64,000 nt of DNA from Candidatus Kapaibacterium sp. (lineage in GTDB: Bacteria; Bacteroidota; Ignavibacteria; Kapaibacteriales; UBA2268): NCBI GenBank assembly GCA_026390695.1, contig JAPLFL010000048.1, positions 339 to 64,338 of the forward strand, given 5' to 3'. Position numbers and translations under genes: made by a program. The notes beneath the pieces were generated by a model, which saw nothing but the letters and a program-made list of their open reading frames with translations, searched no databases and was not told the DNA's origin. Shown in pieces: positions 2,146 through 47,937 of the stretch; position 1 is the stretch's first letter, and every line of letters begins with the position of its first letter.

Positions 2146-2533
2146 AATTTTATTTTTAGAATATGTCTATAAATACCACCTTTTTGCCCGTATCGGATTA
2201 ACGAACACCATGCAAATTACAGAAAAATTTGGAATCCTGAAAGAAAAAGTATTTTCTATGAAGAAGAAAACTCGACATAAATAGCTGGCATGAACTTTAT
2301 TCTCCAATTGGCAGATTGTATTCCAGTGAAACCCTGAAATTTTTGCAAAATCTCTTTGCGAGATAGCGGTAGTTTCTCGCTTTTGCTGTTGTTTAATCAA
2401 CAAGGACTAAAAGTTGTTTTGATTAAATTCACTAAATAAGGTTTGGGCTGTGGGTGGGGGCACTTTTCTACTAAGGTTGAAGAAAAATAGGAAAAGAAAG
2501 AGCTTGGTAAAGCATAATAAAACTAATCTCAAG

Positions 2534-2615
2534 CCACATAGAACCCTTAAAACTCTGGGGCTTTTTATTTGAGGGCGCAATGCCAAGCGTGATGGAAGGG
2601 AGGAAGAAGAAATGA
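2534..2615. repeat. Conserved ~80-bp intergenic repeat, copy A (CCACATAGAACCCTTAAAAC..TGGGGCTTTTTATT..GGG..CAATGCCAAGCG..purine-rich GAAGAAGAAATGA)
   Basis: Near-identical copies at 3247..3328 and 4106..4179; aligned by eye to about 85-90% identity over ~75 bp. Confidence 0.8.
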
Positions 2616-2661
2616 ATCACAGCCCTCCAGTCAGGAGTTTTTTCTGACTGGGAAGGAATTT

Positions 2662-2895
2662 TCAAAGGCTATTATCATAAAGACAATCAGGGCAAATATC
2701 CTGACCACCTGCCCATTCAATAGTATTTCCAGAAACACGGACAGAATAAAATTTCTCTAAATCCAACAATTCAGAAAACCAATCACCATTTAAATAAGGG
2801 TGGCAATCAAATTTCCGCTTTTCACCATTAGAAAATTCAATTTCAAGAAAATAATCTGATAATGGTTTTACGTTTTGTGGTTTTATTCTTGTCAT
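2662..2895 (-). CDS. DUF2442-family small protein (partner of DUF4160; putative toxin-antitoxin-like pair)
   Basis: 77-aa ORF, 2-bp gap to the upstream partner. Sequence FLEIEFSNGEKRKFD...YSVRVSGNTIEWAGGQDICPDCLY is typical of DUF2442. Confidence 0.6.
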   Translation of the reverse strand: MTRIKPQNVKPLSDYFLEIEFSNGEKRKFDCHPYLNGDWFSELLDLEKFYSVRVSGNTIEWAGGQDICPDCLYDNSL

Positions 2896-2897
2896 TG

Positions 2898-3164
2898 CTA
2901 TCTCAATGGGTCAATCTTAAAATATTCTTTACCTTCGGAAAGTAATTTCCAATTCGCTTGCAAGTCTTCATTATGAATTTCAATCCAGGCTATCACCAAT
3001 TTCATCTTTTTAGCCGGCAGGCTTCCACTTAAAACATCTCCATCCAAAGAAATAACTGCTTCATCGTCCTGATATTCAGCATGTATGTGAGGTAAATTAT
3101 GACGGCTGTTAATTTCCCTGTACATTTTTATTATTATTCCGAAAAAGACACTCAAAATTGGCAT
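2898..3164 (-). CDS. DUF4160-family small protein
   Basis: 88-aa ORF. Motif YREINSRHNLPHIHAEYQDDEAVISLDG matches DUF4160, which is usually paired with DUF2442. Confidence 0.6.
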   Translation of the reverse strand: MPILSVFFGIIIKMYREINSRHNLPHIHAEYQDDEAVISLDGDVLSGSLPAKKMKLVIAWIEIHNEDLQANWKLLSEGKEYFKIDPLR

Positions 3165-3246
3165 AAATACTCCATTTTTAACAAACCCATTGTATAAACG
3201 ATTATATTTTATCTTTATTTTATTCTTGATTACTTTCTAAAGAATA

Positions 3247-3328
3247 CCACATAGAACCCTTAAAACCATGGGGCTTTTTATTAGGGGACACAATGCCAAG
3301 CGAGAAAAAGGGAATGAAGAAGAAATGA
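3247..3328. repeat. Conserved ~80-bp intergenic repeat, copy B
   Basis: Same core as copies A and C. Lies in the divergent spacer between the DUF4160 gene and brnT. Confidence 0.8.
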
Positions 3329-3515
3329 GGGAGAAGGGTTGGTAGGAAGATGGAATTTGGCTCTGGATGGAGGAGAGGGAGAAATAAAAAAGCCAATTAG
3401 TTAGGAAAAGACTAAATATAAAAAAAATTAAATTTTAATAGAATCAATTAAAATAAAGAATATTGATCAATCGTCATTAGATTTTGGAAATAGTTTTTAA
3501 TTAATTTTATGGTTT

Positions 3516-3776
3516 ATGTTTGAATTTGACGATAATAAAAGTAGAGCTAATGCTGAAAAGCACGGTATCAATTTCATAGAAGCACAAAAAATGTGGGAAG
3601 ACCCCTATTTGCTTGAAATAGCTGCGAGAACAGAAGATGAACCGCGTAATCTGATAATTGGAAAAATCGGCAAAGTTTATTGGTCTGCAATTGTAACATA
3701 TCGAAATTCAAATATAAGAATAATTTCTGTTCGACATTCACGAAAAGAGGAGATAAATATTTATGAAAGCTACTGA
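3516..3776 (+). CDS. brnT: BrnT-family ribonuclease toxin (DUF497)
   Basis: 86 aa; NKSRANAEKHGINFIEAQKMWEDPYLLEIAARTEDEPRNLIIGKI is a BrnT signature. Overlaps the downstream antitoxin gene by 14 bp. Confidence 0.75.
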   Translation: MFEFDDNKSRANAEKHGINFIEAQKMWEDPYLLEIAARTEDEPRNLIIGKIGKVYWSAIVTYRNSNIRIISVRHSRKEEINIYESY

Positions 3777-3987
3777 ATTTGATAATAAATTTGATTCTGG
3801 TGAGGATATTACCGGATTGCTTGATTTAAGTAAAGCAAAAAGAATCAATTTAACTCCCAAACGTATTAATCTCAATATGCCTCAATGGATGATTGATGAA
3901 TTAAACAAAGAAGCATTGAAATTAGGAGTATCCCGTCAATCTGTAATTAATATTTGGTTAGCAGAAAGATTGCAAGCAACTGCTTGA
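3763..3987 (+). CDS. brnA: BrnA-family antitoxin (CopG/RHH-like)
   Basis: 74 aa; C-terminal NMPQWMIDELNKEALKLGVSRQSVINIWLAERL matches the BrnA RHH domain. Overlapping gene pair with brnT. Confidence 0.7.
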   Translation: MKATEFDNKFDSGEDITGLLDLSKAKRINLTPKRINLNMPQWMIDELNKEALKLGVSRQSVINIWLAERLQATA

Positions 3988-4105
3988 TTTAATGCAGAAT
4001 GATTACTGAATGCAGAATGTAAAATTAATAATGCAAAATGATTGGATATTTGCTTCCTTCAGTCAGAATTTCTTTCTGACTATTGGGAATAAAACTAATC
4101 TTTGA

Positions 4106-4179
4106 CCACATAGAACCCTTAAAACCCTGGGGCTTTTTATTAGGGGACGCAATGCCAAGCGTGAGAAAGAGAAGAAGAA
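4106..4179. repeat. Conserved ~80-bp intergenic repeat, copy C; abuts the stop codon of the restriction-modification gene
   Basis: Same core sequence. Shares an extra 5' AACTAATCT stretch with copy A. Confidence 0.8.
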
Positions 4180-4180
4180 T

Positions 4181-7100
4181 CTATTCTCCTTCAACAATCT
4201 TTATTTCTTCATCAGTTAAATCATAGAGTTTATAAACTAATCGGTCGATTTGCTTATCGAGGGAATCGCAAATATTCTGATAAAGTATTTTATCACTTTC
4301 ATTTTTAGAAGCATACAAATATTTTTGATTTTCGAGTATTTGTTCAACAAGTCCGACTAATTTATCGTGCATTTGCTTTTCAGTGCGAATGGAGAAGTCT
4401 ATCGGTATCACAGGAATTTGATGTAATTCATAACCTGAAATAGTAGGCGTTTTAAATTTTGCACTATACCAAAAATTAATCAATTTTGAATTAATCAAAG
4501 CTAAAAAATATTTCAAGGAATGACTTTTTAAATTAGTTTTATTTGAGAAATAGGCAGTATCCAAAACGAAATATTTATCATAATCAATATAGGCAATGAG
4601 GCGCCTTCCGCTCCTACCTTGCAAAATGATTTTGGCATCAACAAAAAATACATCTTTGGTATGAGGCAAGCACCCAACTTTTTCTTTCATTAAATCAGGT
4701 CTATACAATAACCATAAATTATCATATTCTATACAATACCTCTGAATATTCTTTCCTCTTAATAATTTATAGCAGTTATTGTTTTCTTTTTTACTAAGTA
4801 TAAACCTTGAATCATTTGAAGTTTTAACACCTCTTGAAAAATGGATATAATCTTCAATAGGCTTATTCATATCAAGTTTATTCAATAATTCAAATTCAAT
4901 AATATTTGAATCAACAAATATTCTATATTTCGAATCTTTTGTTATATTTTCAGTAAGAATATCATTACTTTTCACAAAGGAATCTTTTGAATATGAGTAT
5001 ATTTCTAAATTTTTTACAAGATACTTCTGATAAATAATTATCACAGTTTCAACTTGTGCATCCTTAAATGTGCCATTTGGCATTTTGCATAATTTAGAAA
5101 TTGAACCATTTTGGAAAATTATTTTTCGTAAAATTTGAAAACTATCAATTGCTAACCATGAATTTGAGACCAAAAATCCGAGAATACTGTTTTTATTCGT
5201 TAGTTTTTTTATAATTAATTCTAAAAAATAAGCATATAAATCGACTTTGTTTCTAGTAATTGTATATTTATTTTTCAAATATTCTCTTATATAATCTTGA
5301 AGATTAACAATATTTACATAAGGAGGATTTCCAATCACTATATCAAAGCCACCTGATTTCATTATTTCGGGAAAACCATCTTTTCCACTCCAATCAAATG
5401 TATTTATTTTACGCTTTTCCTTTATGTTGAAAGCATTTGTTTGTTTATCATCATAAAAATCACTCCCTATAAGAGAGTTGCCGCACTTAATATTATCCTT
5501 TAAACTTGGCAGAACTGGCAAATTAAATATAGTATTGTCTTCTTTTATCTCGTCGCGAGTTGAGTCCTCAAGTGCTTTAACCGATAAACTGAAATTTGTT
5601 ACTAAAACAGCCTGTGGGTCAATATCAACCCCAAAAATATTATTTATTAGAATTTCAGATTTTAATTTATGAGATAAATGAATCTGAAAATAATCTGAGT
5701 TTGCATCCTGCATTACTCTGATTCTTTTTTCAGTTTTATTTCTGAATTTTTCAACTTTTTCTTTTTTTGACCACTTCTGTAATTCATTAAAATAATACTT
5801 CTTGTACCAGTCCAACAGCTTCTGGTATGCAACAATCAGAAAACTTCCCGAACCGCAAGCAGGGTCAAGAACTTTAATCTTTGAAACGTCTTCGGGAACT
5901 TTACATTCTTCGAGCTTATTACCAAGTGTATTATCTACAATATATTCCACAATATATCGTGGAGTGTAATAAACTCCACCAGCTTTTTTATCATCATATT
6001 TCGGAATTATCGAGACTGAGCCAGCTTTTTTAACAATCTGCTCTGCAATAAATAATTCATAAACATTTCCTATTATTTCAACAGGCATTGCTGCCAAAGT
6101 ATAAATTGAATTTTCGGGTTTTAATGATTCGAATATGTTCTTTAGAACTTTATTATCAATTAGAGCATCATCTGCGTTAGAATCATAATTAAACATTGAG
6201 CCATTGTAAATATGGTCAAGTCTATTAAATATATCATGACACAATTCAAATAGTTTAATTTCTGTTTTCTTTGATTTATCGATTTGGCTTAAAATATTTG
6301 TTAAATAATCAGTTTCGATATTTCTATCAGCAAGCATTTTTACGAAAATGATTCGGTTTATATATAATAAAGTTCCTTTTGTAAGTTGATAATCATCTGA
6401 ATTTTTATCATTTCGGAACATACTTTTAGCAATTTCGAGCCGCCAATACCTTAAATCTTCAAGGAATTGTTTATCGGGAGTTATTCGATTATCGGCAAGC
6501 TGTTTGGCTGATAAATACCACTTCTCCAGCGAACCATTTACGACATTATTATATTCAAATAATTCCCATATTTCATCGAATTTTGTAATGTATTCTTTGA
6601 AGTTCCAATCTTTGATGACGTGTTTATTAAAGGCTTCTGCTCTGTGTTGAGTAAGCGGTGCAGCATCCTGACAATCGAAGAAACGAAATTCCTCAAAATC
6701 AGTTAAAACTGCCAATCGGACATGATTATTCGGATTATCACATGAACTTAACGTTGAAAAAGCATACTGATAGACCTGTCTGATATATTGTTCATTAGTT
6801 TTCAAATCATAAATCGGCTTTTTTGCTTCAATGAAGAAAACGGATTTCATTGCATTTGTATTTTGGTCAGGAATACGAACAAGATAATCAGGTCGTTTAT
6901 TGCTGTCCTGGCCAGTTTTACCAGTCGGTTGTAAAGTGAATACCTGTTTTTCAGGCTCTAATCCACGATTTGAAACATTCCAATTCAGAAACTGAAAGAG
7001 TGGGCGGATAAAATCATTCTCCACCTGCGCCTCTTTATAGTCCTTTCCTTTGAAATAAGAAATTCCTTTTTCAAAATCCTTGACTAAATCAGATATTTCT

Positions 7101-7201
7101 TTCTTAGCTTCTGCTTTGGTATATGTTTTCAGCAATTGAAATGGATAGAATAAAACTACAAAATTAACTAAATTCTCATAATAATCAAAATACATTATCA
7201 A
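4181..7201 (-). CDS. Type IIG/IIL single-chain restriction-modification enzyme (MmeI-like): N-terminal PD-(D/E)xK endonuclease, gamma-class N6-adenine methyltransferase, and target-recognition domain
   Basis: 1006 aa. N-terminal RPDYLV...FFIEAKKP gives a D...ExK nuclease motif; DPACGSGSFL is methyltransferase motif I; VIGNPPYV is motif IV (NPPY), placing motif I before motif IV. Confidence 0.7.
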   Translation of the reverse strand: MIMYFDYYENLVNFVVLFYPFQLLKTYTKAEAKKEISDLVKDFEKGISYFKGKDYKEAQVENDFIRPLFQFLNWNVSNRGLEPEKQVFTLQPTGKTGQDSNKRPDYLVRIPDQNTNAMKSVFFIEAKKPIYDLKTNEQYIRQVYQYAFSTLSSCDNPNNHVRLAVLTDFEEFRFFDCQDAAPLTQHRAEAFNKHVIKDWNFKEYITKFDEIWELFEYNNVVNGSLEKWYLSAKQLADNRITPDKQFLEDLRYWRLEIAKSMFRNDKNSDDYQLTKGTLLYINRIIFVKMLADRNIETDYLTNILSQIDKSKKTEIKLFELCHDIFNRLDHIYNGSMFNYDSNADDALIDNKVLKNIFESLKPENSIYTLAAMPVEIIGNVYELFIAEQIVKKAGSVSIIPKYDDKKAGGVYYTPRYIVEYIVDNTLGNKLEECKVPEDVSKIKVLDPACGSGSFLIVAYQKLLDWYKKYYFNELQKWSKKEKVEKFRNKTEKRIRVMQDANSDYFQIHLSHKLKSEILINNIFGVDIDPQAVLVTNFSLSVKALEDSTRDEIKEDNTIFNLPVLPSLKDNIKCGNSLIGSDFYDDKQTNAFNIKEKRKINTFDWSGKDGFPEIMKSGGFDIVIGNPPYVNIVNLQDYIREYLKNKYTITRNKVDLYAYFLELIIKKLTNKNSILGFLVSNSWLAIDSFQILRKIIFQNGSISKLCKMPNGTFKDAQVETVIIIYQKYLVKNLEIYSYSKDSFVKSNDILTENITKDSKYRIFVDSNIIEFELLNKLDMNKPIEDYIHFSRGVKTSNDSRFILSKKENNNCYKLLRGKNIQRYCIEYDNLWLLYRPDLMKEKVGCLPHTKDVFFVDAKIILQGRSGRRLIAYIDYDKYFVLDTAYFSNKTNLKSHSLKYFLALINSKLINFWYSAKFKTPTISGYELHQIPVIPIDFSIRTEKQMHDKLVGLVEQILENQKYLYASKNESDKILYQNICDSLDKQIDRLVYKLYDLTDEEIKIVEGE

Positions 7202-7279
7202 ATTCGGCTCCTACACCGTCCCCGCAGGACCCGCTCCCTCAGCATAAACTATAAATCGTTGCTGGGGGGACTTGTCATT

Positions 7280-7471
7280 TCATTGCGTTGCCGCTTGAAT
7301 AGCTTGTTCAATTTTGACATAATTACCATTTAAATACGAAATAACTTGCAAACCGGATTTCTTCTGCTTTTCTTTCAAGTCACAGTAAATAGCATCTATA
7401 TCGTAATTAAATTTAGCAGCGTGTTTTTCACGAACTTGTCGTATATCTTCAACAATAGCGTCTTCCCACAT
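7280..7471 (-). CDS. Small hypothetical protein (63 aa) immediately upstream of, and co-oriented with, the RM gene; candidate regulator or antitoxin-like protein
   Basis: Complete ORF: MWEDAIVEDIRQVREKHAAKFNYDIDAIYCDLKEK... No recognisable HTH. Position suggests it is the first gene of the RM operon. Confidence 0.4.
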   Translation of the reverse strand: MWEDAIVEDIRQVREKHAAKFNYDIDAIYCDLKEKQKKSGLQVISYLNGNYVKIEQAIQAATQ

Positions 7472-7847
7472 AATTTATTCCTTAATTAGTTCATGCGATT
7501 TATCTTTTGATGACCTGCAATAATCAGGTCTCTACTTGGTTTTGCAGTCAAATAGCTAATTACGCTTGTTTCAATATATTCTTTTTTCTTTTCCATTTTT
7601 CAAATTTAACTAAATTTTCATAAAAATCAAAACCTTGTTTTTTAGAAAAATGAACTAAGCCAACGCTTACTTTTATTTTTCAACCTTAAAATCCTCTATA
7701 TAATTCTCTCGGCTAATTAATCACTTATACAGATTTATTAATATTTATTTAATTTGCAAAGCCTTACTTAACAAATCTTCATCTCCGGTCAGATTTTCAA
7801 TCTTACTGATCTTTTATATAAAGTCCATCAATAAATTAAAATTTTGT

Positions 7848-7931
7848 CAGACGAGGACGTCTGACATACTATGCGGTAGAACAGACCTCCTCGTCTGACA
7901 TACTATGCGGTAGAACAGACGTCCTCGTCTG
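7848..7931. repeat. Array of three 16-bp hairpin palindromes (CAGACG-N4-CGTCTG) separated by two identical 18-bp spacers (ACATACTATGCGGTAGAA)
   Basis: Read directly: cagacgaggacgtctg / cagacctcctcgtctg / cagacgtcctcgtctg. The first and third are reverse complements of each other. Confidence 0.7.
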
Positions 7932-8210
7932 TTTAGTTATTATTATTTATAAAATATTATATAATAGTCATAAGCAACTCCAGACTATAAGAAAACTTTT
8001 GACCTCATATTTTCCAAACTATTTCGCACGTCGTTTTTGAAAAGTTTTGTTGACAGCAAGATTTTCTTCCCTTATTTTTGTAGGTTAGTTCATTGAAATA
8101 ATTGAAAATTGCTTGGTCTGAGCTTGTTTCTAAAGCTATCTTATTTTTAGGGATAGATTTAATTTCTGAATTTAGGTAAACAGCAGGAATAAATTATAAA
8201 ATATTAATAT

Positions 8211-8440
8211 TTATGCGTACTTGCATACAATTTTATGCAATTCCACTGGAACGCGGCTTCTGCTCTGTAAAAAGCACTTCATAACTTCACCAGAAATTAG
8301 TATGCAACTTTATCCAACGATATGCAAAGAAGCTGAGATACCGCTTCTGATCTATCTAAAACGTTGCATAATATTTATTCATACCTTATGCAGATTTATA
8401 CAATCAGATGCAAATATATGCAATAGACGATATTTTACTG
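8211..8440. promoter_or_regulatory. Cluster of about 10 TATGCA(A/G)/TTGCATA motifs within 230 bp (candidate iteron or operator array)
   Basis: Motif copies read directly, e.g. tatgcgtacttgcatacaattttatgcaa ... tatgcaa ... tatgcaa ... ttgcata ... tatgcag ... atgcaaatatatgcaat. Confidence 0.35.
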
Positions 8441-26010: not shown

Positions 26011-29000
26011 ATGTTTGAGCCTTTACCGGAGCAATTTAACTATCCGGATTTAGAACAGAATATTCTTGAATTTTGGGAACAGAATGAAATTTTCCAAAAA
26101 TCATTGAAATTACGCGATGGAAGCCCGGTTTATTCATTTTATGAAGGACCTCCCACCGTCAACGGAAAACCCGGAATTCATCATGTGATTGCTCGGACTA
26201 TCAAAGATACCGTATGCCGCTTTAAAACCATGACAGGACATTTTGTTCGCCGTCAGGCAGGCTGGGACACTCACGGACTGCCTGTCGAAATTGCAGTTGA
26301 AAAACAATTAGAACTGAAGGACAAGTCTGAAGTAGAAAAATTAGGCGTCGAGAATTTTAATCGTGCTTGTAAAGAATTTGTTTACAAAAATATTGAGATG
26401 GATGAGGGCTGGCGTACTTTAACAACCAGAATGGGATATTGGATTGATCTTGATTCAGCTTATATTACATGTACGAATAACTACATAGAGTCGCTATGGT
26501 GGGCACTTAAAACATATTTTGACAAAGGTCTTATTTATAATGGCTTCAAAGTTGTTCCACAATCACCTACAATTGAAACTCCTCTCAGTTCACATGAATT
26601 GTCGCAAGGCTACAAAGATGTTCGTGATCCTAATTGCTATTTAAAATTAAAAATCATAAATTCATCAATAAAGAATTTAATTGGAAATTATATTTTAGTT
26701 TGGACAACAACTCCATGGACATTGTTTTCTAATGTCGCTCTGGCAGTGGGTGATGAGATTGATTACGTATTAATAAAAAATATAAGAAAAACTAAAGAAA
26801 CCGATTTGGAAGAACTCCTGGTATTAGCTGAATCAAGGCTTTCAGTCATTGATGGAGAATACGAGATAATTAGTAAATTCAAAGGTTCGGAATTGATTGG
26901 TACCGAATATGAGCAAATACTTCAATACTGTATTATAGATAAAAAGAAACATCCTAATGCTTTGACAGTTCTTGCAGGCGATTTCGTCTCAACAGGCGAT
27001 GGTAGCGGAATAGTCCATCTTGCACCGGCTTTTGGTGAAGATGATTATCAGATGTCAAAATTATTTAATCTTCCTTTTCTGCAACCAGTGACACCCAATG
27101 GACACTTTACTGATGAGTTAGGCGAATTTGCCGGTCGGGCTGTTAAAACCTTCAAATATGAGGACAGAACTGAAGAAGGTGCAGATAAAGATATTATTTT
27201 CAAACTCAAAACATTAAATAAAATATATCGTTCAACCAATGACTATACCCACAGCTATCCGCACTGCTGGAGAACCGGAAACCCGATCATTTATTATGCT
27301 CGTGAGTCATGGTTTATAAAATCTCCAGAATACAAGGATGAAATGCTGAAATTGAATGCAACAATAAATTGGCAGCCTGAAGAAATTGGCATTGGTCGCT
27401 TTGGTAATTGGCTTGAAGAAGTTAAAGAATGGTCACTATCAAGAGATAGATTTTGGGGAACTCCGCTTCCTATTTGGGTTAGTGAAGATAAAAAAGATAT
27501 GTTTGCAATCGGCTCAATTCAAGAACTAAGTGAAGGAATTTATCAAAATCCGGACGGAACAAGTATTATATTAAAAGAATCCGACTTAGAGATAGACCTA
27601 CACCGCCCTTTTGTCGATAGAATAATTTTTAAACGCAACGGAAAAACTTATCGACGTGTTCATGAAGTTATCGATGTGTGGTTTGACAGCGGAGCTATGC
27701 CTTTTGCACAATTTCATTATCCATTTGAAAACAAAGAATTATTTGAACAAAGCTTCCCCGCGGATTTTATAGCTGAAGGTATTGATCAAACACGCGGCTG
27801 GTTCTATACATTGCACAATATAGCAACCGTTTTATTTGGGAAACCGGCATTTAAAAATATTGTTGTAAATGATTTGATTCTTGATAAATTAGGTAAAAAA
27901 ATGTCAAAAAAGGATGGAAATACAGTCGATCCTTTTATGATGATGAATAAATATGGTGCAGATGCAATAAGATGGTATTTCTTTGTAAATAATCCGCCAT
28001 GGAAGCCTACTTTATTTAATCCTGAAGATATTGAAAGAACAATACTCTCCGATTTTTTTAGATCTCTGACAAATTCTTTTGCTTTTTTTGCTTTGTATGC
28101 TAATATTGATGGATTCGACGGTACTGAAGCCATGATCGAATTTGCTAAAAAACCTGAAATTGACAAATGGCTTATTTCTCGGGTCAATTCAATAATCCAG
28201 CAATATCGTTTGATGATGGAAGAATATGAATTAACTAAAGCTCACAGAATAATTCAGGAATTTGTGATTTATGAATTATCAAACTGGTATATCAGACGCA
28301 ACAGGCGCAGATTCTGGAAGGGTGATAAGGACGCTGATAAAATTTCTGCCTACCAAACATTGCATTGGGCATTAATAAATATTTTAGCAATAATGGCTCC
28401 TGCAGCACCGTTCCTATCTGAAGACTTATATCAGCGGCTTCGTTTTAAACATTATCCGGAATCCATCCATCTTTTTGATATGCCAAGTGTTAATCATGAA
28501 ACAATTGATCAAAATCTTGAACGAAAAATGGAAATAGCACAGAAAATCGTTTTCTTAGCCCGTTCACTACGTGAGAAATCAAAATTACGTGTCCGACAGC
28601 CGCTATCGAGAATCCTAATTCCTGTAATCAACCCACAGGAACGCAGAGATATTCAATCTGTTGAAGAGATAATCAAAGAAGAGTTGAATATTAAAAAAAT
28701 TGAATATGTTAATGAAGATGAGATAGATATAGTAAATCGTAGAGCTAAAGGCAATTTCAAAGTTCTTGGAAAAAAATATGGCAAATCAACACAAACGATT
28801 GCAAATCTGATAAAAGAACTAACAAATGAGCAGATTAGAAAAATCGAGAAGAATCATTCTTTGATAATTATCAATCAAGATGAGGAATTTGAAATTTCAA
28901 TTGATGACATTGAGGTATTTAGCGAGGATATTGAAGGCTGGCTCGTCGCAACTGATAACAATATCACGGTAGCGCTCGATACTCAATTGACTCCTGATCT

Positions 29001-29253
29001 GGTTAATGAAGGAATGTCACGTGAATTTGTAAATCGTGTACAAAATCTGAGAAAGACACTTGGCTTTGATGTTGTCGATCATGTAAAAATCGAATTGTCT
29101 TCAACAAATGAAATAATTGCTGCAATTTTATCAATGGAATCATATATCAAAAATGAAACACTTGCCGATGAAATAATAATAAATGATCAACTCAAACTCA
29201 ATGAATCTGAGATAAATGGCTTTCCTTTATTTTTTTCAGTCGAAAAAAAGTAA
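26011..29253 (+). CDS. ileS: Isoleucyl-tRNA synthetase (type 2)
   Basis: 1080 aa; HIGH-region PGIHHVIAR and KMSKKDGN (KMSKS). Confidence 0.95.
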   Translation: MFEPLPEQFNYPDLEQNILEFWEQNEIFQKSLKLRDGSPVYSFYEGPPTVNGKPGIHHVIARTIKDTVCRFKTMTGHFVRRQAGWDTHGLPVEIAVEKQLELKDKSEVEKLGVENFNRACKEFVYKNIEMDEGWRTLTTRMGYWIDLDSAYITCTNNYIESLWWALKTYFDKGLIYNGFKVVPQSPTIETPLSSHELSQGYKDVRDPNCYLKLKIINSSIKNLIGNYILVWTTTPWTLFSNVALAVGDEIDYVLIKNIRKTKETDLEELLVLAESRLSVIDGEYEIISKFKGSELIGTEYEQILQYCIIDKKKHPNALTVLAGDFVSTGDGSGIVHLAPAFGEDDYQMSKLFNLPFLQPVTPNGHFTDELGEFAGRAVKTFKYEDRTEEGADKDIIFKLKTLNKIYRSTNDYTHSYPHCWRTGNPIIYYARESWFIKSPEYKDEMLKLNATINWQPEEIGIGRFGNWLEEVKEWSLSRDRFWGTPLPIWVSEDKKDMFAIGSIQELSEGIYQNPDGTSIILKESDLEIDLHRPFVDRIIFKRNGKTYRRVHEVIDVWFDSGAMPFAQFHYPFENKELFEQSFPADFIAEGIDQTRGWFYTLHNIATVLFGKPAFKNIVVNDLILDKLGKKMSKKDGNTVDPFMMMNKYGADAIRWYFFVNNPPWKPTLFNPEDIERTILSDFFRSLTNSFAFFALYANIDGFDGTEAMIEFAKKPEIDKWLISRVNSIIQQYRLMMEEYELTKAHRIIQEFVIYELSNWYIRRNRRRFWKGDKDADKISAYQTLHWALINILAIMAPAAPFLSEDLYQRLRFKHYPESIHLFDMPSVNHETIDQNLERKMEIAQKIVFLARSLREKSKLRVRQPLSRILIPVINPQERRDIQSVEEIIKEELNIKKIEYVNEDEIDIVNRRAKGNFKVLGKKYGKSTQTIANLIKELTNEQIRKIEKNHSLIIINQDEEFEISIDDIEVFSEDIEGWLVATDNNITVALDTQLTPDLVNEGMSREFVNRVQNLRKTLGFDVVDHVKIELSSTNEIIAAILSMESYIKNETLADEIIINDQLKLNESEINGFPLFFSVEKK

Positions 29254-29349
29254 TTGTATTTTGTTTTGTGCTTAATAGTATTAAATTTGTGGTTCAATAA
29301 TAAAAATTAAAAAAAATGATTTTAAAAATATTCAAAATTTAAATGGAGA

Positions 29350-31582
29350 ATGAATATGGCTAAGGCAAAACCTGAAACTTCAAAAAAAATAATCAATAAA
29401 AAATCTGAACCTAAGAATCAGCCATCAAAGCTTTCTCCTGCAATTAAAGCTAACCCAGTTAGTAATGCAAAAAAATCTTTAGATTCTAAAATACAGCCAA
29501 AATCAAAGATAATGGCTAATCCTGTAAAAGCAGCTCCTGGCAAGGCAGAAGTCAAACCCGCTCCTAAGAAAATTGAAGCACCAAAGCCAAAAGCTATAAC
29601 CAAAGCAGCACCAGCAAAACCTGCTCCTAAAAAAATTGAACTACCAAAAGCAAAAGTCGTTACCAAAGCAGCACCAGCAAAACCCGCACCTAAGAAAATA
29701 GAAGCACCAAAGCCAAAAGCCGTTACCAAAGCAGCACCCGCAAAACCTGCTCCTAAAAAAATAGAAGCACCAAAAGCAAAAGCTGTAATCAAAGCAGCAC
29801 CAGCAAAACCTGCTCCTAAGAAAATAGAAGCACTAAAAGCAAAAGCTGTAACCAAAGCCGCACCAGCAAAACCTGCTCCTAAAAAAATAGAAGCACCAAA
29901 GTCAAAAGCTGTAATCAAAGCAGTACCAGCAAAACCTGCTCCTAAAAAAATAGAAGCACCAAAGTCAAAAGCTGTAATCAAAGCCGCACCAGCAAAACCT
30001 GCTCCTAAAAAAATAGAAGCACCAAAGTCAAAAGCTGTAATCAAAGCCGCACCAGCAAAACCTGCTTCCTAAGAAAATTGAAGCACCAAAAGCAAAAGTC
30101 GTTACCAAAGCCGCACCAGCAAAACCTGCTCCTAAGAAAATTGAAGCACCAAAAGCAAAAGTCGTTACCAAAGCGGCTCCTGCAAAACCTGCACCTAAGA
30201 AAATTGAAGCACCAAAAGCAAAAGTCCTTACTAAAGCCGCACCAGCAAAACCTGCACCTAAGAAAATTGAAATCTCAACCGCGAAGTCAGCTCCTACACC
30301 CGCAAATGGGAAAACAGCTCCAGTGGCAAAAGATAAGCCATCTGAAAAAAATATTATCACCAATTCAAGCAGTAAAGCAGTTGCTAAACCCGTTGCGACA
30401 ACAACCGTCACAAAAAAAGTAGAAGCTACAAAACCGGTTTTAAAGAAAGAAGATCCTGTTAAATCAATTAAAAAAGAAGTTGAAGAAACTATTGTTAAAA
30501 GTAGTTCAAAGCAGGCATCATCAAAATTACCCATAGAAGAAAAGAAAAGTAACGCAAACTCGGTCGATAAAAAGAAAGATGTAATTGAAAATAATAAATC
30601 AAAAAGCAAAGAAAATTTAAAAGATAAATCTGTAAAAGCTGCTGCCATTGAGATGATAGCGGAAAGCCCCGCTGTTAATAACAATGAGATTATGGAAATT
30701 AAAGAAAAAAAATTGAATGTTGTTATTGAAGATTCAAAATTTGAAGAAAATTCTGATGATGGTTTTTATGAAGGGAAATCAAGAAATTATGCTAAAGGAC
30801 TTGCTAACTTGAATAAAGCAAAGTCATTTTTAACAAATTCAGAAGAGTTACCACATGATCTTGAAGCTGAAATTGATGTTGATGTAATTGATCATGATCT
30901 TCACCCCGGATTAAAAGAGGATAAAATTATCCCCGGAATGCCTGTACATGATGTTCTTGATGATTATATCGGAGATTATGATATTGACGAGGTTGAAGTA
31001 GTTAAGAAAAAAAGAGGCAGAAAGCCAAAGCAAACTGAACACCATAAACCGAGAGTAATTTTCCAAACTAAAGAAATTAAATCTCCAATTATTAAAAAAG
31101 AAGTTATCTCTGAAGAATCCAGTTTAAGTAAAAAAATGATTGCTCCTCCGGTTAGGCCAATTGTAAGTATCAGATATTCGGATAAAGAACTTGCAGAATT
31201 TAAAATTATTATCACCGAATCCCGTAAAGAGGCTCTTGATGAACTTAGAATGCTTAAGGAAAGACTCGAAGACTTAACGAATTTTGATTTTGCCGAAGAA
31301 AGCATGATTTATTCTATGCACATGGCAGAACAAGGTTCAGAAGCACTTGAACAAGAGAAAACTTATGCTCATATTCAAAGAATAAATGAGTATTTGAAAA
31401 AATTAGACGAAGCCTTGCAAAGAATAACGGAAAAAACTTATGGTATATGCCGCGTCTGTGGTTGTTTGATAGCTAAAGAAAGGCTTATAGCCGTTCCTAT
31501 CACTACATTATCGGCTTCTTATAAAATACATCAGAAATGCCCCGAAGATGGTATAGATATGATTGAACCTGTCAGCAGATAA
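29350..31582 (+). CDS. DksA/TraR-family C4-zinc-finger protein with a very long N-terminal extension of tandem histone-H1-like repeats (KAAPAKPAPKKIEAPKPKAVT, eleven or more 63-bp units) plus an AT-hook (KKKRGRKPK); interrupted by a single-base +1 frameshift at about 30066-30067
   Basis: Frame 1 (29350..30072) stops at TAA inside a repeat that reads cctgctTcctaag where every other unit reads cctgctcctaag. The repeats continue without a stop in the +1 frame into 30323..31582, whose C-terminus (coiled coil plus YGICRVCGCLIAKERLIAVPITT...C) resembles a DksA/TraR zinc finger. Confidence 0.55.
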
Positions 31583-31605: not shown

Positions 31606-32280
31606 ATGGAAATAGAGAAAAAGAATCATAAAGTTGCTATTTATTTTTGGATAGCATCACTTTTTATTATTTTGGATCAAGTGACAAAGTTATGGATCAA
31701 AGGATTTGTAATATTCGGATTTGAACATCATGGATTAAGATTTTCAGAACAGTTGCCAATTATCGGTGCTACATTGCAATTTATTCATGTAGAAAATGCC
31801 GGAGGGCCATTTGGAATCCAATTTGGTGTCGCAAAAATATTCTTGTCATTATTTTCAGTCTTTGCCAGTATAGCTCTTGCTTGGTATCTAATCAAGATCA
31901 AGGAATATTCTTTATGGATTAAAATAGGAGTAGCTTTGATTTTTGCAGGTGCAGTCGGAAATCTGATTGACCGTGTTTTTTACGGAGTATTTTTTAATGA
32001 AGGTGCATTATTTTATGGGAAAGTAGTGGATTTTATACAGGTTGATATCCCTGACGTAGAGCTATTCGGCATGAAGTATGAATCCTACCCGATTTTTAAT
32101 ATTGCGGACAGTCTTGTAACTATTGGTGTTGCATTACTAATAATTTTTAATAATAAAATCCCTTCTTTTGATTTATTACTTAAAAAACAAAAACCGGAGA
32201 TAGTTCCTTTTGAACCTGTACCAGCACAGAAAGATGAAATCAAAGAAAACACTATTAGTCCCACAGGAACTGTCAATTAA
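31606..32280 (+). CDS. lspA: Lipoprotein signal peptidase (signal peptidase II)
   Basis: 224 aa; FIILDQVTKLW, NAGGPFG and FNIADSLVTIG motifs. Confidence 0.85.
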   Translation: MEIEKKNHKVAIYFWIASLFIILDQVTKLWIKGFVIFGFEHHGLRFSEQLPIIGATLQFIHVENAGGPFGIQFGVAKIFLSLFSVFASIALAWYLIKIKEYSLWIKIGVALIFAGAVGNLIDRVFYGVFFNEGALFYGKVVDFIQVDIPDVELFGMKYESYPIFNIADSLVTIGVALLIIFNNKIPSFDLLLKKQKPEIVPFEPVPAQKDEIKENTISPTGTVN

Positions 32281-33358
32281 AACCCAAGATATTGATAAAA
32301 GTAATTATCCCGAATACATTGAAAAAATATTCGAATTCAAGATACCTGCAGGACAACAACCTGAGCGTATTGATAAATATCTGACGCGTTCAGTCGTAAA
32401 TGCAACCCGCAATCGGGTTCAAAAAGCCATAGATGAAGATCAAGTTACAATTAATGGTAAAGTCGCAAAGCCGAGTAAAAAAATTTTACCAAATGATCTT
32501 ATTATATGTAAGATCCTGAAATCTCCGCCCATAAGCCTTATTCCAGAAAATATTCCGCTTAATATAATTTATGAAGATGAATCCATCATTGTAATAAACA
32601 AACAAGCTGGCTTGGTAACGCATCCGGCTCCCGGGAACCGCTATGGCACTCTCGTAAATGCCGTTTTATATCATATTGGGCTGCGTGAGGCTATAAATCT
32701 TGAATTTGACGAAGATGACGAGCCTGACGAGAGCTTGATATTCTCATCAGATGAGATTAGGCCGGGAATCGTACACCGTCTTGATAAAGATACATCAGGA
32801 TTACTTGTTGTATCGAAAAATCCCGTAGCTCATGCAAAACTATCCAAACAGTTTGCAGACAGAACAGTAAAGAAAAAGTATTATGCCTTGGTTTGGGGCA
32901 ATCCAAAGCAAAGCAAAGGCAGGATAATTGCAGATATCGGTCGTTCCAGCAGAGACCGAAAGCTATTTACTGTTCTTAAAAAGGGAGGAAAATTTGCAGA
33001 TACAGAATATAAAGTCATCGAATCGTTTGAATACTTTTCTCTGTTAGAAATTTTGTTGCATACCGGAAGAACACATCAGATACGTGTCCATCTGAGCCAT
33101 GAATCAATGCCCATTGTTGGAGACACTTTTTACGGCGGGAATTCTTTGGTTTATGGCGGCAATAATCCCCAATTTCGAATAATCGGCGAAAAAGTTCTAA
33201 AGCTTGCTGCAAGGCAGATGCTACACGCCAAAACTTTAAGTTTGCATCATCCCGTAAGTGGTCAGGAACTTACTTTTGATTCAAATATTCCTGAAGATAT
33301 GCAGATAATTATCGATTATCTCAGGATCATATCATCGACCCAAAACTCAGACCTTTGA
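32234..33358 (+). CDS. rluD: RluA-family 23S rRNA pseudouridine synthase (RluD-like, with S4 domain)
   Basis: HRLDKDTSGLLVVSKN catalytic motif and N-terminal S4-like region. The track ORF starts at 32210; either start overlaps the end of lspA. Confidence 0.85.
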   Translation: MKSKKTLLVPQELSIKTQDIDKSNYPEYIEKIFEFKIPAGQQPERIDKYLTRSVVNATRNRVQKAIDEDQVTINGKVAKPSKKILPNDLIICKILKSPPISLIPENIPLNIIYEDESIIVINKQAGLVTHPAPGNRYGTLVNAVLYHIGLREAINLEFDEDDEPDESLIFSSDEIRPGIVHRLDKDTSGLLVVSKNPVAHAKLSKQFADRTVKKKYYALVWGNPKQSKGRIIADIGRSSRDRKLFTVLKKGGKFADTEYKVIESFEYFSLLEILLHTGRTHQIRVHLSHESMPIVGDTFYGGNSLVYGGNNPQFRIIGEKVLKLAARQMLHAKTLSLHHPVSGQELTFDSNIPEDMQIIIDYLRIISSTQNSDL

Positions 33359-47568: not shown

Positions 47569-47575
47569 ATTTAAG

Positions 47576-47648
47576 CTGCCCCGAGAGGGCTCGAACCTCT
47601 ACTCTTCTGATCCAGAGTCAGACGTGTTGCCAGTTACACCACAGGGCA
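47576..47648 (-). tRNA. tRNA-Gln (anticodon CUG)
   Basis: Hand-folded cloverleaf: acceptor U1-A72 with G73 discriminator (Gln-type), D-stem GTGT/ACAC, anticodon loop CU-CUG-GA, T-loop TTCGAGC. Confidence 0.8.
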
Positions 47649-47654
47649 GGTTTG

Positions 47655-47695
47655 AGAAAGTAGAAGGTAGAAAAGTAGAAAAGTAGAAAAAGAGA
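47655..47695. repeat. Tandem heptamer repeat (A/G)GTAGAA(A) x5
   Basis: gagaaagtagaaggtagaaaagtagaaaagtagaaaaagag. Similar arrays occur at 52432..52474 and, in reverse orientation, at 63251..63286. Confidence 0.6.
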
Positions 47696-47864
47696 AGAAA
47701 GAAAATAGAAAATTGTAGAGCGCGCTTTTGCTTTACATAAAATTTTAACTTCAAAAGAACTTTACTATTATAGAATTATTTTTTTGAAGGGTGCTAAATA
47801 ACAATTAGCCTTATTCTCAACTTTTTATTTTTCTACCTTCAAACTTTTGCCTTCTATAACCTCG

Positions 47865-47937
47865 TGGACCCGATGAGGGTCGAACTCACGACCTCTAGAG
47901 TGCGATTCTAGCGCTCTACCAACTGAGCTACGGGCCC
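47865..47937 (-). tRNA. tRNA-Ala (anticodon CGC)
   Basis: Hand-folded: acceptor GGGCCCG with the G3-U70 wobble (Ala identity element), D-loop AGTTGGTA, anticodon loop AT-CGC-AC, T-loop TTCGACC, discriminator A. Confidence 0.8.

What the first reader, a model, noticed from the sequence alone, without database searches (positions are those of the whole stretch)
29350..31582. DksA/TraR-family gene between ileS and lspA carries a ~600-aa histone-H1-like tandem-repeat extension and a +1 frameshift
In the FCB group the small (~125 aa) TraR/DksA zinc-finger gene sits between ileS and lspA. Here that slot holds a ~744-aa reading frame. Its C-terminal ~110 aa resemble DksA (coiled coil plus a CxxC...C finger). 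Its N-terminus consists of eleven or more near-perfect 63-bp repeats encoding KAAPAKPAPKKIEAPKPKAVT, followed by a Lys/Glu-rich linker and an AT-hook (RGRKPK). Those are hallmarks of nucleoid-associated or H1/AlgP-like DNA binding fused to an RNAP secondary-channel factor. The frame is broken by one extra T (cctgctTcctaag versus cctgctcctaag in all other units) at about 30066. This is a sequencing or assembly error in a difficult repeat, a genuine pseudogene, or a slippage-prone contingency site.
Basis: seen in the sequence. Interest (0 to 1): 0.65.

Follow-up and report, generated by a model that had tools for sequence, protein, structure and literature searches.

The report
Histone-like tail fused to DksA-like factor
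Between ileS and lspA this Kapabacteria genome carries a 743-residue gene that joins a very long lysine-rich, histone-H1-like repeat tail to a DksA-type RNA-polymerase-binding domain; the design is known from Streptomyces DdbA and common in this phylum, and a single extra T that breaks it is most likely an assembly error or a recent mutation.

Summary
Window 29350-31582 holds two ORFs of 240 and 419 aa. One extra T at 30066/30067 separates them, and deleting it gives a single 743-aa frame. That frame has four parts:
- 11 full units (TRF 11.4 copies) of a 63-nt repeat encoding KPAPKKIEAPKAKAVTKAAPA (net charge +57);
- an acidic segment;
- an AT-hook-like RGRKPK;
- a 136-aa C-terminal core with a DksA fold (TM 0.70 to DksA and DksA2).

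The gene order ileS - this gene - lspA - rluD is conserved.

The architecture is not unique:
- All 120 best homologues carry lysine-rich extensions of 94-334 aa.
- 232 species in the genome scan encode the core, almost all of the 80 loci returned being Ignavibacteriota/Kapabacteria MAGs.
- More distant FCB relatives carry similar extensions.
- Streptomyces DdbA is a characterised H1-like plus DksA-like protein.

The window's 607-aa extension is the longest I saw.

The frameshift lies at no slippery sequence. It sits exactly at the end of a 142-nt perfect repeat, and related assemblies often have scaffold gaps in this region. I therefore favour an artefact or a recent indel over programmed recoding.

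Separately, a sister subclade has a conserved A10 tract at the junction between the two modules. This is a strong candidate for a transcriptional-slippage site.

The parts
26011..29253 (+). ileS, the upstream neighbour (class I aminoacyl-tRNA synthetase, IleRS type with DUF5915)
   Evidence: Pfam tRNA-synt_1, Anticodon_1 and DUF5915. tblastn finds the same gene upstream of the homologue in most related loci.
29344..29358 (+). Likely ribosome-binding site and true start: GGAGA, then ATGAAT, then ATG at 29356 (MAKAK...)
   Evidence: Read directly from the sequence. Homologues start MAKKK, MAKTK or MAKAK. Inferred, not tested.
29350..30072 (+). Upstream reading frame (240 aa): basic leader plus the first 8 repeat units, ended by the TAA that the extra T creates
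   Evidence: Not annotated as a protein in NCBI.
29554..30271 (+). Tandem array of 63-nt units: 11 full units and the first part of a degenerate 12th unit that runs on beyond 30271 (TRF counts 11.4 copies). Each unit encodes KPAPKKIEAPKAKAVTKAAPA. Net charge +57, pI 10.6.
   Evidence: TRF score 1007; unit table; charge.
29925..30066 (+). Longest perfect period-63 block (142 nt; units 7 and 8 are identical). It ends exactly at the extra T.
30066..30067 (+). TT where every other unit has one T. This is the one-base insertion that shifts the frame by +1. The resulting stop is at 30070-30072.
30041..30322 (+). Frame-2 stretch with no start codon that carries the array on from its ninth unit and then the start of the linker
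30323..31582 (+). Downstream reading frame (419 aa, GTG start as annotated). Identical to MCX6153617.1, locus tag NT007_05610, Candidatus Kapabacteria bacterium.
30791..31015 (+). Acidic segment (net charge -10, pI 4.5) immediately before the hook
31013..31030 (+). AT-hook-like motif RGRKPK, within KKKRGRKPK
   Evidence: There is no Pfam AT_hook hit. Canonical RGRPRK occurs in homologues.
31160..31582 (+). DksA-fold core. The coiled coil is roughly 31181-31429. The tip reads D-F-A-E-E-S. The invariant Cys codons are at 31448-31450, 31457-31459 and 31538-31540.
   Evidence: Pfam PF01258; AlphaFold model, pLDDT 77.9; Foldseek TM 0.70 to 4ijj and 1tjl; invariant columns.
31606..32280 (+). lspA (signal peptidase II), the conserved downstream neighbour
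   Evidence: Pfam Peptidase_A8, E 3e-32; synteny.
32210..33358 (+). RluD-like pseudouridine synthase, the next conserved neighbour
   Evidence: Pfam S4 plus PseudoU_synth_2; synteny.

Best explanation
This is one gene, the positional counterpart of B. subtilis ylyA and of chlamydial dksA. It encodes a 743-aa DdbA-like, multi-module protein.

Proposed mechanism:
- The N-terminal 300-odd residues are an intrinsically basic, H1-C-terminal-domain-like K/A/P repeat tail that would bind DNA non-specifically.
- An acidic segment followed by one AT-hook-like motif (the HMGA order) would add minor-groove contacts.
- The C-terminal 136 aa fold like DksA, with a coiled coil and a Cys-containing globular domain, and would dock on RNA polymerase (RNAP).
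- The protein would therefore tether an RNAP-binding factor to the nucleoid, or RNAP to DNA.

Shown: the anatomy, the fold, the synteny, and that the architecture is general in the clade. Inferred: DNA binding, RNAP binding and the physiological role.

The single extra T is a plain, non-programmed one-base insertion. It arose either while a repeat longer than the assembler's k-mers was being assembled, or as a very recent or minority mutation. About 60:35 in favour of the artefact.
For: Architecture:
- A continuous 743-aa frame appears once one T is removed.
- The repeat peptide continues in the shifted frame for three more full units and part of a degenerate fourth, with no start codon.
- All 120 best homologues are single ORFs with a 94-334-aa K-rich extension and the same 136-aa core.
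- 232 species in the genome scan encode a relative of the core; in most of the 80 loci returned ileS lies just upstream, and lspA and rluD follow where the contig extends far enough.
- 35 of 74 related loci have their own in-frame tandem repeats in the extension.

Fold and family:
- Pfam zf-dskA_traR passes its cutoff.
- A profile against PDB sequences gives Chlamydia DksA (6ptg) at E 8e-11.
- The AlphaFold model with Foldseek gives TM 0.70 to DksA2 (4ijj) and E. coli DksA (1tjl), and it also hits DksA bound to RNAP (5vsw).

Precedents:
- In Streptomyces DdbA the H1-like N-terminal domain binds and condenses DNA in EMSA, and the C-terminal domain is DksA-like (PMC3643593).
- Myxococcus CarD joins an RNAP-binding domain to an acidic segment plus AT-hooks (PMC4374960).

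Frameshift:
- No slippery run lies in 30041-30069.
- The extra T sits at the first base after a 142-nt perfect repeat and at the switch between two repeat subfamilies.
- Six of about 74 related loci have 100-N scaffold gaps within 2.4 kb upstream of the core. In the four inspected the gap lies inside the K-rich repeats.
- The rest of the window has long intact ORFs and no other broken gene.
Against: - No read data were available, so the extra T could be genuine.
- NCBI's annotation treats the 419-aa part as a gene on its own.
- The tail gets no Pfam or NCBIfam hit, so 'H1-like' rests on composition.
- The core is below the curated cutoffs for DksA and for YteA, has no DxxDxA tip and has no C4 finger.
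- The closest solved relative, chlamydial DksA, does not complement E. coli dksA (PMC9126822). B. subtilis yteA, yocK and ylyA knock-outs did not affect rrn P1 (PMC3113569). DksA-like action on RNAP is therefore not assured.
- Only one AT-hook-like motif is present, and it is non-canonical.
Confidence: 0.62

Rival explanations
1. The insertion is real in this population, so the locus is now a split gene or a young pseudogene. It would make a free 240-aa H1-like protein from the normal start. It might also make an acidic/AT-hook/DksA-fold protein of 419 aa or less from GTG 30323 or a later internal start.
For: - The sequence as deposited has the stop.
- NCBI annotates the 419-aa ORF.
- A sister subclade naturally encodes the K-rich module as a separate 71-103-aa ORF ahead of the DksA-like ORF, so free H1-like and DksA-like parts are viable products.
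- Tandem repeats are mutation hot spots.
Against: - The break cuts the repeat array in two. About 94 codons of repeat and linker are left with no start codon, which is unlike a designed gene boundary.
- No decay is visible downstream.
- The position coincides with the end of a 142-nt perfect repeat, where short-read graphs branch.
- No other homologue has an indel frameshift inside its repeats.
Confidence: 0.3
2. The shift is programmed or a contingency site. This could be +1 ribosomal frameshifting at UCC-UAA, where a stop codon in the A site slows decoding, or phase variation by repeat slippage. Either would let the cell tune how much full-length protein it makes.
For: - The 0-frame stop follows immediately after the shift point.
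- The family does contain a lineage with a conserved A10 tract at the module junction.
Against: - There is no homopolymer, no X_XXY_YYZ or CUU_UGA-type motif, and no upstream SD-like element in 30041-30069.
- P-site tRNA re-pairing from UCC to CCU or from GCU to CUU would be poor (inference).
- Slippage of a 63-nt unit preserves the frame, so it cannot switch the gene on and off.
- The site is unique to this contig, so nothing shows conservation.
Confidence: 0.04
3. The K/A/P tail is not primarily a DNA-binding module. It could bind another polyanion, such as polyphosphate granules (as AlgP does) or RNA and ribosomes. It could also act as a disordered spacer or condensate-forming region for the DksA-like domain.
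For: - The H1-like protein AlgP localises to polyphosphate granules (PMC9239181, title and abstract).
- The tail has no detectable fold or family.
- Repeat period and sequence differ from lineage to lineage, so only composition is conserved.
Against: - Tails of the same composition bind DNA in DdbA (PMC3643593).
- AT-hooks, which are DNA minor-groove motifs, recur in 13 of 120 homologues.
Confidence: 0.2

Closest known systems
Streptomyces coelicolor DdbA (SCO2075), an H1-like plus DksA-like nucleoid-associated protein (PMC3643593)
   Same: [quoted passage not shown]
- The tail alone binds DNA in EMSA.
- The gene lies in the conserved core near the cell-division cluster. From my own recollection it sits next to ileS and lsp; I did not test this.
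   Different: - The DdbA tail is 93 aa with five (S/T)(A/T)AKK pentapeptides. The tail here is 607 aa, with 11 full 21-aa units plus an acidic segment and an AT-hook-like motif.
- DdbA keeps the C4 finger and both tip aspartates. The core here has a D-F-A-E-E-S tip and CxxC(x)C...HxxC.
- The phylum differs. The paper states that orthologues were found only in streptomycetes.
Bacillus subtilis YlyA, YteA and YocK (DksA/TraR paralogues; TIGR02890 yteA family)
   Same: - TIGR02890 is the best-scoring NCBIfam family: 73.5 bits over model positions 2-117.
- ylyA lies directly next to ileS (PMC5282499), the same slot as here.
- A distant relative shows divIVA-...-ileS-X-lspA-rluD, as in Bacillus.
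   Different: - The score is below the family cutoff of 134.4.
- The Bacillus proteins are small and have no basic tail. This is my own knowledge, since no Bacillus sequences were examined here.
Chlamydia trachomatis DksA (PDB 6PTG; PMC9126822)
   Same: - It is the closest solved structure by sequence (E 8e-11).
- It shares the YS.H.A(D/E)QG segment.
- The gene lies directly upstream of lspA.
- Its Cys pattern is non-canonical.
   Different: - It has 132 aa and no tail.
- It has one Cys and no zinc.
- It does not complement E. coli dksA.
E. coli DksA and P. aeruginosa DksA2 (RNAP secondary-channel factors)
   Same: Same fold: TM 0.70, rmsd 2.1-2.5 A over about 118 residues. The model also matches DksA in the RNAP complex 5vsw.
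   Different: - 21-25% identity.
- Below the TIGR02420 and NF033459 cutoffs.
- No DxxDxA motif and no CxxC-x17-CxxC finger.
Myxococcus xanthus CarD (RNAP-beta-binding domain plus an HMGA-like domain; H1-like in some myxobacteria) (PMC4374960, which cites Garcia-Heras 2009)
   Same: - An RNAP-interacting module is fused to an intrinsically disordered DNA-binding region made of an acidic segment followed by AT-hook(s).
- H1-like K/A/P regions are reported there as functionally equivalent to the AT-hook region.
   Different: - The RNAP-binding domain is unrelated (CarD_CdnL_TRCF, not DksA).
- The domain order is reversed.
- CarD has four canonical RGRP hooks, against one RGRKP here.
H1-like bacterial K/A/P repeat proteins (Pseudomonas AlgP, Chlamydia Hc2)
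   Same: Tandem lysine/alanine/proline repeats with high positive charge. Some homologues have a precomputed Pfam HC2 (PF07382) hit.
   Different: The window's tail has no PF07382 hit. Those proteins are not fused to an RNAP-binding fold.

Membership tests
DksA/TraR superfamily | Pfam PF01258 zf-dskA_traR at or above the gathering score | tested here: met
   27.0 bits against a cutoff of 24.9, at residues 372-397 of the 419-aa ORF.
DksA/TraR superfamily | DksA fold: a long antiparallel coiled coil plus a small globular domain | tested here: met
   In the AlphaFold model the helices span core residues 8-45 and 51-90, with pLDDT 77.9. Foldseek gives TM 0.70 to 4ijj and 1tjl, and E 6.5e-5.
DksA proper (NCBIfam equivalogs TIGR02420, NF033459, NF008045) | Score at or above the curated cutoff | tested here: not met
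   42.6 against 115.5, 43.8 against 105 and 23.1 against 289.
DksA proper | DxxDxA motif at the coiled-coil tip (D71 and D74 in E. coli) | tested here: not met
   The tip region reads L-T-N-F-D-F-A-E-E-S. E47 is invariant and A45, E46 and S48 are nearly invariant, so the tip is acidic but not DxxDxA.
DksA proper | C4 zinc finger CxxC-x17-CxxC (or the C2/C1 variants) | tested here: not met
   The pattern is C-R-V-C-G-C ... K-I-H-Q-K-C. Three Cys are invariant in A1 (C97, C100, C127). The third Cys of CxC and the His vary among homologues.
DksA proper | Binds the RNAP secondary channel and modulates initiation with ppGpp | not testable with these tools
   Only fold similarity to RNAP-bound DksA (5vsw_M) is available.
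YteA family (TIGR02890) | Score at or above the curated cutoff | tested here: not met
   73.5 bits against 134.4. It is nevertheless the best-scoring family and covers model positions 2-117 of 159.
ylyA-type positional orthologue | The gene lies directly downstream of ileS and upstream of lspA and rluD | tested here: met
   Window gene order. Most of the related loci scanned have ileS just upstream, and lspA and rluD follow where the contig extends far enough. ileS-ylyA adjacency in B. subtilis is from PMC5282499. dksA-lspA adjacency in Chlamydia is from PMC9126822.
DdbA-like bifunctional protein | [quoted passage not shown] | tested here: met
   This holds after removing the extra T. The tail runs from residue 1 to 307, has net charge +69 and pI above 10, and the core occupies residues 604-743. 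Homologues are single ORFs.
DdbA-like bifunctional protein | The tail binds and condenses DNA | not testable with these tools
   Shown only for DdbA (PMC3643593).
DdbA-like bifunctional protein | Sequence orthology to SCO2075 | not tested
Histone H1-like / Hc2 (Pfam PF07382) | Profile match | tested here: not met
   The 240-aa ORF has no Pfam family at E up to 1. A few homologues have a precomputed PF07382 hit. The resemblance is compositional: K 22%, A 16%, P 12%.
AT-hook | R-G-R-P core flanked by basic residues | tested here: inconclusive
   The window has KKKRGRKPK, that is RGRKP. There is no Pfam AT_hook hit. Canonical K(R/K)RGRPRK occurs in a similar position in homologues P0007, P0008, P0012, P0024 and P0051. 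In all, 13 of 120 homologues have an RGRP, RGRK or GRP(K/R) motif in the extension.
Programmed frameshift or contingency locus | A slippery motif or homopolymer at the shift site, conserved in relatives | tested here: not met
   30041-30069 reads TCAAAGCCGCACCAGCAAAACCTGCTTCC and has no run longer than A4. No relative shares the site.

The most novel reading that the evidence does not exclude
In this protein family the junction between the histone-like tail and the DksA-like domain is a regulated decoupling point. The A10 subclade would use transcriptional slippage to make both a free H1-like protein and the RNAP-tethered fusion. The window's lineage would have reached the same two-product state by a real +1 insertion, with occasional +1 shifting at UCC-UAA restoring some full-length protein. 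The break would then be a functional state and not an error.
Probability: 0.1. Interest if true: 0.7.

Novelty: new variant of a known kind. Interest (0 to 1): 0.45.

Why it matters
DksA-type factors are normally free, diffusible regulators of RNA polymerase. A version welded to a long histone-like, AT-hook-bearing tail would instead place that regulator on the nucleoid, or pin polymerase to DNA.

Only one such protein, Streptomyces DdbA, has been studied, and it was reported as restricted to streptomycetes. This window and its relatives show that the same design is the default form of the ileS-lspA-linked DksA-like gene across Ignavibacteriota/Kapabacteria, and that it recurs in other FCB lineages. 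The tails turn over rapidly by tandem-repeat expansion.

That makes the design a general, testable solution for coupling chromosome structure to transcription, and no longer a Streptomyces curiosity.

Practically, it also marks a locus where short-read assemblies often break or gap, so annotations of it should be read with care.

Tried and rejected
- Exact look-ups of the 419-aa and 240-aa products in the assembly index found nothing. No independent contig of the same population could be compared. The 240-aa ORF is not in the protein collection at all.
- Pfam and NCBIfam on the repeat ORF gave no family.
- The promoter/terminator scan was uninformative. The 'terminators' on the minus strand inside the array are the repeat unit itself hit four times.
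- Rfam and ARAGORN found only two tRNAs, far from the locus.
- I checked whether the contig is generally error-prone. It is not. Long ORFs are intact, and the ORF-poor first 4 kb holds small toxin-antitoxin-type genes, not broken genes.
- A first attempt to flag split genes in related loci by K-rich ORFs in other frames was too noisy, because A-rich DNA gives K-rich peptides in every frame. I replaced it by inspecting the gaps between ileS and the core ORF.
- A search for a conserved RNA structure downstream of the A10 tract in the sister subclade found no base pairs. I therefore rejected a hairpin-stimulated -1 ribosomal frameshift as the preferred mechanism there.
- The apparent conserved AGGAA before a conserved GTG in that subclade may be codon-driven (K-E-V or R-N-V). 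I left it unresolved.
- I rejected a secreted, TonB/TolA-like reading of the tail, because the N-terminus is hydrophilic and has no signal or membrane segment (sequence).
Full report
**What is in the window**

Between an IleRS-type synthetase gene (26011-29253) and lspA (31606-32280), with an RluD-like gene after that, lie two same-strand ORFs:
- 29350-30072, 240 aa, frame 1;
- 30323-31582, 419 aa, frame 2.

A 63-nt tandem array spans the boundary at 29554-30271, with 11.4 copies, 90% matches and TRF score 1007. Copy spacing is 63 nt throughout except for one interval of 64 nt. That interval contains CCTGCTTCCTAAG, where the other units read CCTGCTCCTAA(G/A). The extra T at 30066/30067 creates the stop at 30070-30072.

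Frame 2 is open from 30041 and has no start codon before 30323. Even so, it encodes three more full repeat units and a degenerate one. Deleting the T gives a single 743-aa frame. The likely true start is the second ATG, at 29356 (MAKAK...). It is preceded by GGAGA and matches the N-termini of homologues.

**Anatomy of the conceptual protein**

| Residues | Segment | Charge |
|---|---|---|
| 1-68 | basic leader | net +12 |
| 69-307 | 11 full 21-aa units (KPAPKKIEAPKAKAVTKAAPA) and the start of a degenerate 12th | net +57, pI 10.6 |
| 308-480 | mixed S/T/K/E linker | net +8 |
| 481-555 | acidic segment | net -10, pI 4.5 |
| from 556 | KKKRGRKPK (nt 31013-31030) and a short linker | net +7 |
| 604-743 | conserved core | net -6 |

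**The core**

- It passes Pfam zf-dskA_traR.
- As a profile it finds chlamydial DksA (6ptg, E 8e-11), Agrobacterium and E. coli DksA, and DksA2 among PDB sequences.
- An AlphaFold model (pLDDT 77.9) has two long helices forming a coiled coil plus a small globular part.
- Foldseek places the model on DksA2 (4ijj) and E. coli DksA (1tjl) at TM 0.70. It also matches DksA inside the RNAP complex 5vsw.
- It is not a canonical DksA. NCBIfam dksA models score 42-44 bits against cutoffs of 105-115. The best family is yteA (TIGR02890) at 73.5 bits, itself below its cutoff of 134.4.
- The tip reads D-F-A-E-E-S and not DxxDxA. The metal site is CxxC(x)C...HxxC with three invariant Cys.

**Relatives**

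The 419-aa ORF is identical to MCX6153617.1 (NT007_05610) from a Candidatus Kapabacteria MAG.
- All 120 best homologues share only the 136-aa core (65-83% identity). They carry lysine-rich N-terminal extensions of 94-334 aa.
- The genome scan found 232 species with the core. Almost all of the 80 loci returned are Ignavibacteriota/Kapabacteria MAGs. In most of them ileS lies just upstream of the gene, and lspA and rluD follow where the contig extends far enough.
- 35 of 74 loci have their own in-frame tandem repeats in the extension. Periods run from 15 to 207 nt and differ from lineage to lineage. The tails therefore evolve by independent, rapid repeat expansion.
- AT-hook-type motifs (RGRP, RGRK or GRP(K/R)), several of them canonical RGRPRK, occur in 13 of 120 homologues.
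- A full HMMER scan of 1.84 billion cluster representatives found 767 hits at E up to 1e-10. Pooled with the 120 homologues, 253 sequences were scored against the core profile. In the high-scoring tier, 151 of 154 have extensions of at least 90 aa. Among 99 more distant relatives, 36 have extensions of at least 90 aa, 34 of them strongly basic, and 37 are the small form of about 127-140 aa.
- One distant basic-tailed member sits in divIVA-...-ileS-X-lspA-rluD. Another, with gliding-motility (SprB, PorP/SprF) genes among its neighbours, which suggests Bacteroidota, sits elsewhere.
- The window's 607-aa extension is the longest I saw. The next longest is about 370 aa, in L001.

**What is known**

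[quoted passage not shown] EMSA shows that the tail binds DNA. The authors found orthologues only in streptomycetes (PMC3643593).
- B. subtilis yteA, yocK and ylyA are the closest DksA homologues there (PMC3113569), and ylyA is adjacent to ileS (PMC5282499).
- Chlamydial dksA lies directly upstream of lspA and does not complement E. coli dksA (PMC9126822).
- Myxococcus CarD couples an RNAP-binding domain to an acidic segment followed by AT-hooks, and an H1-like region is reported as functionally equivalent (PMC4374960).
- No paper in the library combines DksA with Ignavibacteria.

The window's gene is therefore a new, extreme variant of a known kind, on a different DksA subfamily and in a different phylum.

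**The frameshift**

Three readings were weighed.

1. Programmed recoding or a contingency site is very unlikely.
   - A productive shift must occur within 30041-30069, which has no homopolymer or slippery motif.
   - Slippage of 63-nt units keeps the frame.
   - No relative shares the site.
2. An artefact is favoured.
   - The extra T is the first base after the longest perfect period-63 block (29925-30066, 142 nt; units 7 and 8 are identical) and lies at the switch between two repeat subfamilies. Short-read assembly graphs branch at exactly such a point.
   - Six of about 74 related loci have 100-N scaffold gaps within 2.4 kb upstream of the core. In the four I inspected (L026, L029, L034, L064) the gap lies inside the K-rich repeats.
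   - The rest of this contig shows no broken genes.
3. A real, recent or minority mutation cannot be excluded without reads.

My estimate is about 60% artefact, 35% real and under 5% programmed.

**Mechanism proposed (inferred)**

The basic tail and the hook would hold the protein on DNA, as the DdbA tail does. The DksA-fold core, with its conserved acidic tip, would engage RNAP. The result would couple nucleoid state to transcription. Alternatives are that the tail binds polyphosphate or RNA (compare AlgP, PMC9239181), or that it acts as a disordered spacer.

**A side finding in a sister subclade**

A subclade with GC 0.48-0.59 was sampled as L070, L071, L074 and L075 (genome scan) and L081-L102 (metagenome scan).
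- The K/A-rich module is a separate ORF of 71-103 aa. It ends one to three codons after an invariant A10 tract, most often as GCA AAA AAA AAA GCC AGC TAA.
- The DksA-like ORF follows in the -1 frame and reads KKKS... through the same tract. This holds at 20 junctions with A10.
- One species shows A11 in one assembly (L101) and A10 in another (L090).
- The tract is the only A or T run of 10 or more in each 1.4-12.4-kb locus, and it is the only run of 8 or more in every locus apart from a T8 in three related loci.
- Lysine codons elsewhere in these ORFs are mostly AAG.
- Between the tract and the next conserved GTG (131-167 nt downstream), the -1 frame has 0 stops. The other two frames have 28 and 50, over 693 codons in 14 loci.
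- Indels in that stretch are multiples of three.
- No conserved RNA structure follows the tract.
- No in-frame genomic version was seen, whereas sister lineages are single fused ORFs.
- Runs of more than 7 A are known sites of programmed transcriptional realignment. Examples are Thermus dnaX (A9) and Chlorobi dnaX (A7-A10) (PMC3711429, PMC1088944).

This is a strong candidate for programmed slippage that yields both a free H1-like protein and the fusion. The window's shift does not share this mechanism.

Noticed in passing
Related loci L070:5695-5704, L071:974-983, L074:5698-5707, L075:5710-5719, and L081-L102 (for example L081:2992-3001): A sister subclade has a conserved A10 tract exactly at the junction between a separate K/A-rich ORF (71-103 aa) and the DksA-like ORF in the -1 frame. 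The linker has 0 stops in the -1 frame against 28 and 50 in the other two frames (693 codons, 14 loci). AAG is the usual Lys codon elsewhere in these ORFs. No in-frame genomic version was seen. It is a candidate programmed transcriptional-slippage site (or -1 frameshift) that would make a free H1-like protein and the fusion.
   Followed up: yes
L090:1379-1388 versus L101:2956-2966: Near-identical loci from two metagenomes differ in tract length (A10 against A11). The two ORFs therefore stand in different frame relations. This is either homopolymer length polymorphism or a sequencing difference.
   Followed up: partly
L070, L074, L075, L081-L102, 131-167 nt downstream of the A10 tract: A Val codon in the motif (E/N)V(T/A)KKS is GTG in 14 of 14 loci and is preceded by AGGAA. 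It could be an independent start for the DksA-like ORF, or it could simply reflect codon conservation.
   Followed up: partly
L026, L028, L029, L034, L054, L064 (region upstream of the core): Runs of 100 N (scaffold gaps) lie within 2.4 kb upstream of the core, and in L026, L029, L034 and L064 they fall inside the lysine-rich repeat region. Short-read assemblies often fail at this locus.
   Followed up: partly
L001:4930-6420: This homologue has an extension of about 370 aa with 207-nt repeats. No ATG, GTG or TTG stands where the conserved MAKAK start should be, and the codon there is ATT. This may be a rare ATT start or a point change.
   Followed up: partly
window 1-4200: This stretch has no long ORFs. 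It holds small toxin-antitoxin-type genes: DUF4160 (2898-3164) and DUF2442 (2662-2895) on the minus strand, and BrnT toxin (3516-3776). A 77-nt element is repeated three times, at 2516, 3229 and 4088 (74-90% identity).
   Followed up: partly
window 7858-7931: A 34-nt unit is repeated 2.2 times at 97% identity inside a gene-poor, roughly 1-kb stretch (7201-8221; only ORFs shorter than 65 aa). Its function is unknown.
   Followed up: no
window 47575-47937, minus strand: tRNA-Gln(CTG) and tRNA-Ala(CGC) lie in a 688-nt intergenic gap.
   Followed up: no
Titles of many related loci (for example L002, L004, L005, L008): Many MAG records that carry this Kapabacteria/Ignavibacteria-type locus are titled 'uncultured Hyphomicrobiales bacterium'. 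The taxonomic label looks wrong.
   Followed up: no
L112:1749-4947: In a distant relative's locus ileS is called as two adjacent genes (273 and 795 aa). This suggests a frameshift or assembly error in that contig. The same locus shows DivIVA-PNP-ileS-X-lspA-rluD, resembling the Bacillus gene order.
   Followed up: no
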